Assembly: GCF_003018255.1 (NCBI RefSeq) | Contig: NZ_CP027440.1 | From: Escherichia coli | Lineage (GTDB): Bacteria > Pseudomonadota > Gammaproteobacteria > Enterobacterales > Enterobacteriaceae | Strand: one strand, 5' to 3' | DNA length: 64,000 bases | In this document: positions 27,800-30,700 of the stretch, piece after piece | Layout of the letters: the number at the start of each line of letters is the position of its first letter | How positions within the stretch are numbered: the first letter of the stretch is position 1 | Program-made: the position numbers

Positions 27800-30700
27800 T
27801 TATACATATCACTCTAAAATGTTTTTTCAATGTTACCTAAAGCGCGATTCTTTGCTAATATGTTCGATAACGAACATTTATGAGCTTTAACGAAAGTGAA
27901 TGAGGGCAGCATGGAAACCAAAGATCTGATTGTGATAGGTGGCGGCATCAATGGTGCTGGTATCGCGGCAGACGCCGCTGGACGCGGTTTATCCGTGCTG
28001 ATGCTGGAGGCGCAGGATCTCGCTTGCGCGACCTCTTCCGCCAGTTCAAAACTCATTCACGGTGGCCTGCGCTACCTTGAGCACTATGAATTCCGCCTGG
28101 TCAGCGAGGCGCTGGCTGAACGTGAAGTGCTACTGAAAATGGCCCCGCATATCGCCTTCCCGATGCGTTTTCGCCTGCCGCATCGTCCGCATCTGCGCCC
28201 GGCGTGGATGATTCGCATTGGTCTGTTTATGTACGATCATCTGGGTAAACGCACCAGCCTGCCGGGATCAACCGGTTTGCGTTTTGGCGCAAATTCAGTG
28301 TTAAAACCGGAAATTAAGCGCGGATTCGAATATTCCGACTGTTGGGTAGACGACGCCCGTCTGGTACTCGCCAACGCCCAGATGGTAGTGCGTAAAGGCG
28401 GTGAAGTGCTTACTCGTACTCGTGCCACTTCTGCTCGCCGCGAAAACGGCCTGTGGATTGTGGAAGCGGAAGATATCGATACCGGCAAAAAATATAGCTG
28501 GCAAGCGCGCGGCCTCGTGAACGCCACCGGCCCGTGGGTAAAGCAGTTCTTCGACGACGGGATGCATCTGCCTTCGCCTTATGGCATTCGCCTGATCAAA
28601 GGCAGCCATATTGTCGTGCCGCGCGTTCATACACAAAAGCAGGCCTACATTCTGCAAAACGAAGATAAACGTATTGTCTTCGTGATCCCGTGGATGGACG
28701 AGTTTTCCATCATCGGCACCACCGATGTGGAATACAAAGGTGATCCAAAAGCAGTGAAGATTGAAGAGAGTGAAATCAATTACCTGCTGAAAGTGTATAA
28801 CACGCACTTTAAAAAGCAGTTAAGCCGGGACGATATCGTCTGGACTTACTCCGGCGTGCGTCCGCTGTGTGATGATGAGTCCGATTCGCCGCAGGCTATC
28901 ACTCGTGATTACACCCTTGATATCCATGATGAAAACGGCAAAGCGCCGCTGCTGTCGGTATTCGGCGGTAAGCTGACCACCTACCGCAAACTGGCGGAGC
29001 ACGCGCTGGAAAAACTGACGCCATATTATCAGGGCATTGGTCCGGCGTGGACGAAAGAGAGCGTGCTGCCGGGTGGTGCCATTGAAGGCGACCGCGACGA
29101 TTATGCCGCTCGCCTGCGCCGCCGCTATCCGTTCCTGACTGAATCGCTGGCACGCCATTACGCGCGCACGTACGGCAGCAACAGCGAGTTGCTGCTCGGC
29201 AATGCAGGGACGGTAAGCGATCTCGGGGAAGATTTCGGTCATGAGTTCTACGAAGCGGAGCTGAAATACCTGGTGGATCACGAATGGGTCCGCCGCGCCG
29301 ACGATGCCCTGTGGCGTCGCACAAAACAAGGCATGTGGCTGAATGCGGAACAACAATCTCGTGTGAGTCAGTGGCTGGTGGAGTATACGCAGCAGAAGTT
29401 GTCGCTGGCGTCGTAAGGATGATGCCCGGTTGTGAAGTGCAACCGGGCTATTTGGATTCCTTAGACTATTCATTGTAAATAATTGAATAACGGCCCCTGA
29501 GCTAAAATCGCCAAACTTAAGCACGTTCCCCACTCAACCCACTTCTGCCCCTGGCTTCTATTTTTGCTACGCCACTGGCAGTAATATCCCAACGCAAAAC
29601 CAAGCTGTGCACTAATCGGGCCGACAAAATCAGTCCACGGCTGCGGCCAAAAAGGGGAAAAATTCAGGGGAAGCCAGACAAACGTCAGAAAGAAGTTTCG
29701 GATATTTTCCAGCAACGCTGATTTCTCTGGAGTAATATAAAGAATGAAATTCGAGAGAATTAACCAGAAATAGGCCGGAGAAAAGACCAGCCAGTAATGC
29801 AGTCTGTTTTTTAATTCAGGAGGCGTTCTGCGGGAGAATTGCCAACCGATGCCACCCATTACACTGAAAAAAAGTGCATATTCAACCATTAACTCAAGTT
29901 GTAATTCCTGAAGAGAAATACGCACAACCAGGAGCGGAAAGGAGAATATTATTTCAGCCAGAAAAGTTAACGTGAATATAAGTACGGCTAAGGCAATAAC
30001 CGTCGGCCATACCAATAATGGCACGATAACAAAACCGAGAATTACAGGGGGAATATAAAGCCGGAATTTAATCATTTTTATTTTCCTGGTGATTCGGATG
30101 ATGCGTCATACATCGCGCATAAACACTCATCAATCATCCAGTCGTCTTCCCAGACCTGATAATGTGTGCCCTGTTCGGGCTGATTAAGCAGGTTCTCAAT
30201 CGCCTGCCGCGCACGTTCTTTCAGGATGAATTGATTGTTGAAGGCCCAGGCATTGATTTGGGCGGTAATGGCTTTATCGTCATCATCCTGCTCAAAACGA
30301 CTATTCTGAATATTCTCTTCCCTGTTATGCCACAGCAAACATGCCATCGATACTGTGGGTTGGTAACCGGGTACAGAGATGATGGCATCAAGCAATGGCG
30401 AAAGAGCGATATCGGCACGGGAAAACATTTCCAGCATATACTGTAATTCGACAGCCTCATCGCCAGATACCCAATCAGCCATATACTGGCAGGCAAATCG
30501 CTGCAATATTGCCCGTTCATCCTCACGCCAGTTTTCTTTACTGGCAAGGTTGATACGCCGTAGAGAAAATACTTCGTGAATATTGTCAAATTGCCCCTGC
30601 GCAACAAACTCCAGTAAACGAGGAAGAAAATAACGAACCTCATCGCTGTTTTGCGGATCAGGTCCTGGACTACTATTCCAGGCATTGATTAAGGAATAAG

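What the first reader, a model, noticed from the sequence alone, without database searches (positions are those of the whole stretch)
27857..27880. Perfect palindromic GlpR operator at glpD
TGTTCGATAACGAACA is a perfect 16-bp palindrome 30 bp upstream of the glpD start, in the divergent glpE-glpD control region, matching the known GlpR half-site.
Basis: partly seen in the sequence, partly recalled or inferred. Interest (0 to 1): 0.2.

Follow-up and report, generated by a model that had tools for sequence, protein, structure and literature searches.

The report
Known GlpR operator at glpD promoter
This is the long-known main binding site of the glycerol-3-phosphate repressor GlpR on the promoter of the E. 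coli glpD gene; it is real and strongly conserved but ordinary, and it is a near-perfect rather than a perfect palindrome.

Summary
The 16-mer TGTTCGATAACGAACA is at 27861-27876, in the 189-bp divergent glpE-glpD intergenic region of an E. coli chromosome. That region is base-for-base identical to K-12 MG1655. The 16-mer is not a perfect palindrome: pair A27867/A27870 fails, so 7 of 8 pairs match. It ends 34 nt, not 30, before the glpD ATG (27911).

Palindromes of this quality occur at chance frequency in the window. What makes the site significant is a 20/20 match of 27859-27878 to the GlpR operator consensus WATGTTCGWTAWCGAACATW, the only match with 3 or fewer mismatches in 64 kb (0 expected). 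I validated that consensus against published glpTQ sites and by enrichment in the glpT-glpA and glpF control regions.

The site overlaps a -10-like TAATAT hexamer and abuts a weaker in-register second site (27879-27898). Its core is exact in at least 98% of 5426 E. coli genomes. The exact core also lies upstream of glpD in Citrobacter, Salmonella and Photobacterium. An intact glpR lies 1.4 kb away.

This is operator O_D1 of the Larson laboratory papers (1988, 1996). It most likely works by blocking RNA polymerase until glycerol-3-phosphate releases GlpR. It is already known and of low interest.

The parts
27859..27878 (.). Primary GlpR operator (O_D1 in the literature's naming, recalled): TATGTTCGATAACGAACATT.
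   Evidence: It matches the consensus 20/20, is unique in the window, and has 0 expected by chance. It is identical to K-12 coordinates 3,561,961-3,561,980. The core is exact in 5323/5426 E. coli genomes. The exact 18-mer lies upstream of glpD in Citrobacter, Salmonella and Photobacterium.
27879..27898 (.). Adjacent in-register weaker site (candidate O_D2): TATGAGCTTTAACGAAAGTG.
   Evidence: It has 6 mismatches to the consensus, which is chance-level on its own (about 10 such sites per shuffled window). However, it abuts the first site exactly 20 bp centre to centre. Its right half AACGAAAGTG is 9/10 invariant across three genera, while its left half is 5/10 invariant. The tandem-operator layout itself is recalled from Yang & Larson 1996.
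27856..27861 (+). -10-like hexamer TAATAT, overlapped by the left end of the operator.
   Evidence: The sequence shows this directly. Across genera only position 3 varies (TAATAT / TATTAT / TACTAT), which is the least constrained -10 position. Photobacterium has TATTAT in the same overlap. A transcription start near 27869 (42 nt before the ATG) is recalled from Ye & Larson 1988 and was not tested here. The generic promoter scan found no site scoring at least 9/12.
27833..27838 (+). Weak -35-like hexamer TTACCT, 17 bp upstream of the -10-like hexamer.
   Evidence: This is a sequence-only assignment. It matches TTGACA at 3/6, and 4/6 positions are invariant across genera. Inferred.
27798..27813 (.). 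CRP-like site TGTTATACATATCACT shared by the divergent glpE and glpD promoters.
   Evidence: It has 2 mismatches to TGTGA-N6-TCACA, which is chance-level as a pattern (21 found against 25.5 expected). Both half-sites are 5/5 invariant across genera, and variation is confined to the central spacer. It would be centred at about -63.5 relative to the recalled start. PMC4117983 states that glpD is not appreciably CRP-dependent.
27911..29416 (+). [quoted passage not shown]
   Evidence: NCBIfam NF008899, 837.6 bits against a cut-off of 360. RefSeq annotates it as glpD.
27395..27721 (-). glpE, thiosulfate sulfurtransferase: first gene of the divergent glpEGR operon.
   Evidence: NCBIfam NF001195, 200.7 bits against a cut-off of 102.
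26520..27350 (-). glpG, rhomboid protease.
   Evidence: NCBIfam NF008155, 528.2 bits against a cut-off of 335.
25745..26503 (-). glpR, the cognate DeoR-family repressor. It is intact here (252 aa, Gly55 present).
   Evidence: NCBIfam NF008154, 552.8 bits, with the profile matched 1-252/252. The MG1655 reference copy is annotated as a pseudogene.

Best explanation
[quoted passage not shown] It is the same sequence as operator O_D1 of K-12. A GlpR oligomer binds the two half-sites ATGTTCG/CGAACAT, probably together with the adjacent weaker site 27879-27898. Because the site lies over the -10 hexamer and the transcription start, bound GlpR keeps RNA polymerase from initiating glpD transcription. 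When glycerol or glycerol-3-phosphate is available, glycerol-3-phosphate binds GlpR, lowers its affinity for the operator, and glpD is expressed. Shown here: the sequence match, its uniqueness, its identity to K-12, the gene context, the intact repressor gene, and conservation. Taken from the literature: GlpR represses glpD and is released by glycerol-3-phosphate. Recalled or inferred: the exact transcription start, cooperative tandem binding, and looping to operators inside glpD.
For: The site matches the consensus 20/20, and it is the only match with 3 or fewer mismatches in 64 kb, with 0 expected. The consensus was validated independently of this site. It finds the two RegulonDB-derived glpTQ GlpR sites listed in Supplementary Table 1 of PMC7804116 in the same register. 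It also gives 5 sites with 6 or fewer mismatches in 761 bp of the glpT-glpA and glpF control regions, against about 0.26 expected from the window's own rate of 0.34 per kb. The genes are glpD, glpE, glpG and an intact glpR. The intergenic 189 bp are identical to MG1655. The region is present in 5424-5425 of 5426 E. coli genomes. The -10 plus operator core 27851-27876 is exact in 5323/5426 genomes, and sampled variant alleles differ only outside the 20-mer. Of 48 exact occurrences of ATGTTCGWTAWCGAACAT in about 100,000 species genomes, 15 are glp-linked. Fourteen lie directly upstream of a glpD homologue. These include Photobacterium, with GlpD only 61% identical, where the site again overlaps a TATTAT hexamer and is followed by an extra half-site. 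In the Escherichia/Citrobacter/Salmonella alignment, variation avoids the functional elements and falls in the CRP spacer, -10 position 3, the promoter spacer and the left half of the second site. The glpE-proximal part is only 19/68 invariant. Literature: glpD is under negative control by GlpR with glycerol-3-phosphate as inducer (PMC4117983; PMC5493358). glpD is one of four operons with mapped GlpR sites, citing Ye & Larson 1988 and Yang & Larson 1996 (PMC7567609).
Against: No binding or expression experiment can be run here. The primary footprinting papers are not in the held library, so the names O_D1/O_D2, the start site 42 nt before the ATG and the footprint limits rest on my recollection. 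The 18-mer's invariance in the cross-genus alignment is partly built in by how the loci were found. Species whose site deviates by one base, such as Salmonella enterica proper and Klebsiella, were not sampled. The generic sigma-70 scan found no promoter in the region, so the overlap with the promoter is inferred from a 4/6 hexamer. The second site is not distinguishable from chance by score alone. The recalled internal operators in glpD have no match with 6 or fewer mismatches.
Confidence: 0.95

Rival explanations
1. The site is a chance near-palindrome in an AT-rich intergenic region with no specific function.
For: Palindromes of this quality are not rarer than chance in the window: 33 observed against 22.7 +/- 4.7 expected, and 12 against 6.7 +/- 2.6.
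Against: The site matches a specific, independently validated consensus 20/20 with 0 expected. It sits at the promoter of a regulon gene beside the repressor gene. The exact core recurs upstream of glpD across four genera, including one with 61% GlpD identity. It is exact in at least 98% of E. coli genomes.
Confidence: 0.01
2. The inverted repeat acts as an RNA hairpin in the glpD leader (attenuator, stability or translation element) rather than as a protein-binding DNA site.
For: RNA covering both arms (27850-27915) folds to -14.3 kcal/mol with z = -2.5, and includes a 7-bp hairpin from the repeat.
Against: Any DNA palindrome gives such a hairpin. With the recalled start near 27869 only the right arm is transcribed, and that RNA folds no better than shuffles (-5.9 kcal/mol, z = +0.36). 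There is no Rfam family at the site. There is no run of T after the stem, and no terminator-like site was found. In Photobacterium the arms are kept at the sequence level rather than through compensatory changes.
Confidence: 0.02
3. The site is the operator of a different regulator, such as another DeoR-family paralogue, rather than of GlpR.
For: E. coli has many DeoR-family paralogues, and the GlpR protein here also scores against AgaR, SrlR, YgbI, DeoR and others. As I recall, the deo operator also has TGTT...AACA ends. The Reg-Seq paper (PMC7567609) notes that the RegulonDB GlpR motif is poorly defined.
Against: The motif is shared specifically with the other glp regulon control regions and with published glpTQ GlpR sites. 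It travels with glpD and glpR across genera. The literature assigns glpD repression to GlpR.
Confidence: 0.02

Closest known systems
glpD operator O_D1 (with tandem O_D2) of E. coli K-12, from Ye & Larson 1988 and Yang & Larson 1996
   Same: It is the same DNA. The 189-bp glpE-glpD intergenic region of the window equals NC_000913.3, and the 20-mer is at K-12 coordinates 3,561,961-3,561,980. The gene order glpR-glpG-glpE / glpD is also the same.
   Different: Nothing differs in the site itself. The host strain differs from K-12 elsewhere: it has an intact glpR where the MG1655 reference has a pseudogene, and a roughly 9.5-kb fimbrial insert downstream of glpD.
GlpR operators of glpTQ/glpACB and glpFKX in E. 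coli
   Same: They have the same 20-bp dyad motif and the same tandem spacing at multiples of about 20 bp. In K-12 these are 2024, 2076 and 2116 in L051, and 3670, 3690 and 3732 in L052. They are repressed by the same protein.
   Different: Those sites are much poorer matches (5-7 mismatches). The glpD site is the only perfect consensus match, so it is presumably the strongest operator. The glpFK operators overlap CRP sites, whereas here the CRP-like site is separate and upstream.
DeoR operators of the deo operon (16-bp palindrome TGTTAGAATTCTAACA, recalled from memory)
   Same: The repressor belongs to the same family. The operator is a palindrome with TGTT...AACA ends. Multiple operators and cooperative or looped binding by an oligomeric repressor are features of both.
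   Different: The inner half-site bases and the inducer differ (deoxyribose-5-phosphate instead of glycerol-3-phosphate). This was not tested here.

Membership tests
GlpR (glp regulon repressor) operator | Matches the 20-bp dyad consensus WATGTTCGWTAWCGAACATW | tested here: met
   The site matches 20/20 at 27859-27878, is unique in the window and has 0 expected. The consensus was recalled from memory but was validated against published glpTQ sites and by enrichment in other glp control regions.
GlpR (glp regulon repressor) operator | Lies in the control region of a glp regulon gene | tested here: met
   The site is 33-52 nt upstream of the glpD ATG in the glpE-glpD intergenic region.
GlpR (glp regulon repressor) operator | Overlaps the core promoter (-10 and start site), so that binding excludes RNA polymerase | tested here: inconclusive
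   The site overlaps a conserved TAATAT hexamer, and the same overlap is seen in Photobacterium. However, the transcription start is recalled from the literature rather than mapped, and the generic promoter scan found nothing.
GlpR (glp regulon repressor) operator | Cognate repressor gene is present and intact in the genome | tested here: met
   glpR at 25745-26503 (-) encodes 252 aa and matches the profile over its full length at 552.8 bits.
GlpR (glp regulon repressor) operator | Tandem or multiple operators allowing cooperative binding | tested here: inconclusive
   An in-register neighbour at 27879-27898 has 6 mismatches, which is chance-level by score, but its right half is 9/10 invariant across genera. 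Photobacterium has an extra half-site directly after the dyad. The recalled internal operators in glpD could not be recognised by the consensus.
GlpR (glp regulon repressor) operator | Identical to an experimentally footprinted sequence | tested here: met
   Identity to K-12 MG1655 across the whole intergenic region was tested and met. The footprint itself (Ye & Larson 1988) is cited but could not be read.
GlpR (glp regulon repressor) operator | Bound by GlpR in vitro and released by sn-glycerol-3-phosphate; glpD derepressed in a glpR mutant | not testable with these tools
   Support comes from the literature only: PMC4117983, PMC7567609 and PMC5493358.
GlpR (glp regulon repressor) operator | Conserved upstream of orthologous glpD genes | tested here: met
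   The exact 18-mer lies upstream of glpD in 14 species-level genomes of Escherichia, Citrobacter, Salmonella and Photobacterium, plus one further Photobacterium locus next to glpR. Sampling was biased towards exact matches.

The most novel reading that the evidence does not exclude
The glpD operator itself holds nothing new. The most novel reading left open concerns a second GlpR-like 20-mer, AATGCGCGAAAACGAAAATA (26521-26540, 4 mismatches). It covers the last codons and stop codon of glpG, 18-37 bp upstream of the glpR start. It could be an unrecognised fifth GlpR site, 1338 bp from O_D1, used either for autoregulation of glpR or as a distal looping partner. It matches the consensus better than every glpTQ or glpFK operator scanned (5-7 mismatches). 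A site with 2-5 mismatches sits at the same position in all 10 enteric loci examined.
Probability: 0.12. Interest if true: 0.3.

Novelty: already known. Interest (0 to 1): 0.05.

Why it matters
The finding matters only as a correct annotation. It identifies the main switch that keeps aerobic glycerol-3-phosphate dehydrogenase off until glycerol-3-phosphate is present, and this has been textbook knowledge for E. coli K-12 since the late 1980s. The analysis adds some small points of record. The site is the only perfect consensus GlpR operator among the control regions scanned. Its core is exact in at least 98% of complete E. coli genomes. The arrangement of the operator over a -10-like hexamer is kept as far away as Photobacterium.

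Tried and rejected
I tried to read the primary papers (PMC211429, PMC178619, PMC178618), but they are not held. A full-text search for the site sequence together with GlpR gave only an irrelevant hit. Pseudomonas GlpR papers and the IS5/glpFK papers give general regulation but no glpD operator sequence.

I looked for the internal glpD operators that I recalled at about +568 to +628. No 20-mer with 6 or fewer mismatches lies anywhere in glpD. At the recalled position there is only a core CGAAAACG (28441-28448). These operators can therefore be neither confirmed nor denied by sequence.

The generic sigma-70 and terminator scan of 27650-27950 found nothing. The CRP pattern scan is at chance level across the window. 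I considered the RNA-hairpin reading and rejected it. The 'perfect palindrome' description is rejected, as is palindromy as a significance argument. RefSeq records carry no annotation of regulatory sites here.

The test for extra nucleotide-level constraint on the glpG-tail site was not significant, with 19 of 271 windows as conserved at third positions.

Full report
**Observation**

The reported 16-mer TGTTCGATAACGAACA occurs once in the window, at 27861-27876. It is not a perfect palindrome. Its reverse complement is TGTTCGTTATCGAACA, and the pair A27867/A27870 is non-complementary, so 7 of 8 pairs match. One more matching pair on each side gives ATGTTCGATAACGAACAT (27860-27877, 8 of 9 pairs), which is 7-bp arms around ATAA. 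Thirty-four bases, not 30, separate it from the glpD ATG at 27911.

As a palindrome it is unremarkable. The window holds 33 16-mers with at least 7/8 pairs, against 22.7 +/- 4.7 in shuffles. It holds 12 18-mers with at least 8/9 pairs, against 6.7 +/- 2.6. The only perfect 16-bp palindrome in the window is at 52904.

**What carries the significance**

The 20-mer 27859-27878, TATGTTCGATAACGAACATT, fits WATGTTCGWTAWCGAACATW at all 20 positions. I recalled this consensus from the Larson laboratory's work on glp operators. It is the only match with 3 or fewer mismatches in 64 kb, with none in 100 dinucleotide shuffles. My own scan gave 0.01 sites with 3 or fewer mismatches per shuffled window.

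Because the consensus came from memory, I tested it independently.
- In K-12's glpT-glpA intergenic region it finds, in the same register, the two natural GlpR sites that PMC7804116 lists from RegulonDB (AAAATGTTCAAAATGACGCATGA and AAATGGTAAAAAACGAACTTCAG).
- The glpT-glpA and glpF control regions together contain 5 sites with 6 or fewer mismatches in 761 bp. The window's own rate predicts about 0.26.
- Those other operators have 5-7 mismatches, so the glpD site is the only perfect one.

**Context**

- The downstream gene is glpD (NCBIfam 837.6 bits, cut-off 360).
- The divergent genes are glpE, glpG and a full-length GlpR-type DeoR regulator (552.8 bits). Its translation is intact with Gly55.
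- The DNA is E. coli. The region is 100% identical to strain JNE23-011 and present in 5425 of 5426 complete genomes.
- The 189-bp glpE-glpD intergenic region is base-for-base identical to K-12 MG1655, where the 20-mer lies at 3,561,961-3,561,980.

Everything established experimentally for the K-12 glpD control region therefore applies to this sequence.

**Anatomy**

- **-10 region.** The left end of the operator overlaps a -10-like hexamer TAATAT (27856-27861). A weak -35-like TTACCT lies 17 bp upstream.
- **Transcription start.** I recall from Ye & Larson 1988 that it is 42 nt before the ATG, near 27869. That would put the operator at -10 to +10. I could not verify this because the paper is not held. 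The generic promoter scan found no strong sigma-70 match.
- **Second site.** Directly adjacent and in register lies TATGAGCTTTAACGAAAGTG (27879-27898). It has 6 mismatches, which is chance-level by score.
- **CRP-like site.** TGTTATACATATCACT lies at 27798-27813. As a pattern it is also chance-level.

**Conservation**

- **Within E. coli.** The 30-mer 27849-27878 has an exact 28-base-or-longer match in 5323 of 5426 genomes, and the 30-mer 27854-27883 in 4925. Most of the within-species variation therefore maps to 27877-27881, at the junction with the second site. Three sampled variant alleles differ only outside the 20-mer. For example, G27884A falls in the left half of the second site.
- **Across species.** A scan of one genome per species (298 Gb) for ATGTTCGWTAWCGAACAT found 48 places. 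I estimate about 17 by chance for uniform base composition; this is my own calculation.
- **glp-linked hits.** Fifteen of the 48 are glp-linked. Fourteen sit directly upstream of a glpD homologue in Escherichia, Citrobacter, Salmonella arizonae/diarizonae and Photobacterium. One more Photobacterium hit lies just past glpR at the edge of the fetched DNA. In the enteric loci the 18-mer starts 50-51 nt before the ATG, as in the window. The other 33 hits are in unrelated taxa without glpD or glpR nearby.
- **Photobacterium.** GlpD is only 61% identical there. The dyad is truly perfect (ATGTTCGATATCGAACAT), overlaps a TATTAT hexamer and is followed immediately by another half-site, AACGAACAT.
- **Three-genus alignment.** Variation avoids the functional elements:

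| Element | Invariant positions |
|---|---|
| CRP-like half-sites | 5/5 and 5/5; the central spacer varies |
| -10-like hexamer | 5/6; only position 3 varies |
| Right half of the second site | 9/10 |
| Left half of the second site | 5/10 |
| glpE-proximal part of the intergenic region | 19/68 |

The 18-mer itself is invariant in this alignment by construction.

**Mechanism**

This is the primary operator through which GlpR represses glpD.
- *Shown here:* the motif match, its uniqueness, the context, identity to K-12 and conservation.
- *From papers I could read:* glpD is under negative control by GlpR, whose inducer is glycerol-3-phosphate (PMC4117983; PMC5493358). glpD is one of four operons with mapped GlpR sites, citing Ye & Larson 1988 and Yang & Larson 1996 (PMC7567609).
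- *Inferred or recalled:* GlpR bound over the -10 hexamer and start site excludes RNA polymerase. It binds cooperatively to the tandem second site. Repression is strengthened by looping to two weak operators inside glpD.

I could not recognise those internal operators by sequence. No 20-mer in glpD has 6 or fewer mismatches, and only a CGAAAACG core sits where I recalled O_D3. This fits the Reg-Seq authors' remark that 9 of the 17 RegulonDB GlpR sites differ from the consensus site at nine or more of 22 positions.

**Rivals**

- *Chance palindrome.* It is excluded by the consensus statistics and the conservation.
- *Leader-RNA hairpin.* It is unlikely. RNA spanning both arms folds well (z = -2.5), as any palindrome must. 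From the recalled start only one arm is transcribed, and that RNA folds no better than shuffles (z = +0.36). There is no Rfam match at the site.
- *Operator for another DeoR paralogue.* It is unlikely because the motif is shared with the other glp control regions and travels with glpD and glpR.

**Verdict**

The feature is already known and identical to K-12's O_D1. Interest is low.

**Passing observation**

The one thing that might repay a look is a 4-mismatch GlpR-like site at the glpG stop codon, just upstream of glpR (26521-26540).
- A site with 2-5 mismatches is present at the same position in all 10 enteric loci examined.
- It matches the consensus better than the glpTQ and glpFK operators do.
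- It lies in coding sequence and in an A-rich translation-initiation region, both of which could explain its conservation.
- Its synonymous-site conservation is not significantly above the rest of glpG: 4/6 third positions invariant against 27.5% overall, with 19 of 271 windows as good.

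Noticed in passing
window 26521-26540: There is a GlpR-consensus-like 20-mer here (reverse complement AATGCGCGAAAACGAAAATA, 4 mismatches). 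It covers the last six codons and stop codon of glpG, 18-37 bp upstream of the glpR ATG. A site with 2-5 mismatches sits at the same position in all 10 enteric loci examined; Citrobacter sp. R56 has AATGTGCGAAAACGAACATA with 2 mismatches. It matches the consensus better than the known glpTQ/glpFK operators do. Coding constraint and an A-rich translation-initiation region are confounders, and third-position conservation is not significant (19/271 windows as good). Per the Reg-Seq paper, RegulonDB lists no GlpR site at glpR.
   Followed up: partly
window 25745-26503 (-): glpR is intact here (252 aa, Gly55), whereas the MG1655 reference record annotates glpR (b3423) as a pseudogene. [quoted passage not shown]
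   Followed up: partly
window 29470-38900 (L001 22171-31597): About 9.5 kb lies between glpD and glgP that K-12 lacks; K-12 has only the small yzgL gene there. It holds three small ORFs (two hypothetical, one YbbD family) and a seven-gene chaperone-usher fimbrial operon, all on the minus strand. At least 80% of it is covered in only 556 of 5426 E. coli genomes, and partial or divergent matches occur in 3897.
   Followed up: partly
window 52876-52919: The only perfect 16-bp palindrome in the window, TTGTCCGGCCGGACAA (52904-52919), lies in the gntR-gntK intergenic region. Directly beside it are two GntR-operator-like repeats, ATGTTACGGGTAAC (52876-52889) and TGTTATCGGTAACAT (52890-52904). These are probably the known GntR operators and/or the gntR terminator.
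   Followed up: no
window 56177-56241 (-): This is the RyhB small RNA gene (Rfam RF00057, 83.1 bits against a gathering score of 55). It was the only Rfam hit in the window.
   Followed up: no
window 49526-49545: This is the other 4-mismatch match to the GlpR consensus (TGCGTTCGATATCGAGAATA). It lies inside a 387-aa ORF on the minus strand (49029-50192), and I regard it as a chance match.
   Followed up: no
L005 2650-2725 (Photobacterium sp.): In Photobacterium, glpR lies upstream of glpD in the same orientation. The operator between them is a perfect palindrome, ATGTTCGATATCGAACAT, followed immediately by a third half-site, AACGAACAT. This 1.5-operator arrangement overlaps a TATTAT hexamer.
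   Followed up: partly
Genome-contig loci L004, L025, L026, L039, L043, L044 and others: Several Betaproteobacteria and other MAG contigs carry exact ATGTTCGTTAACGAACAT-type palindromes with no glpD or glpR homologue in the fetched flank. They could be chance matches or operators of unrelated regulators.
   Followed up: no
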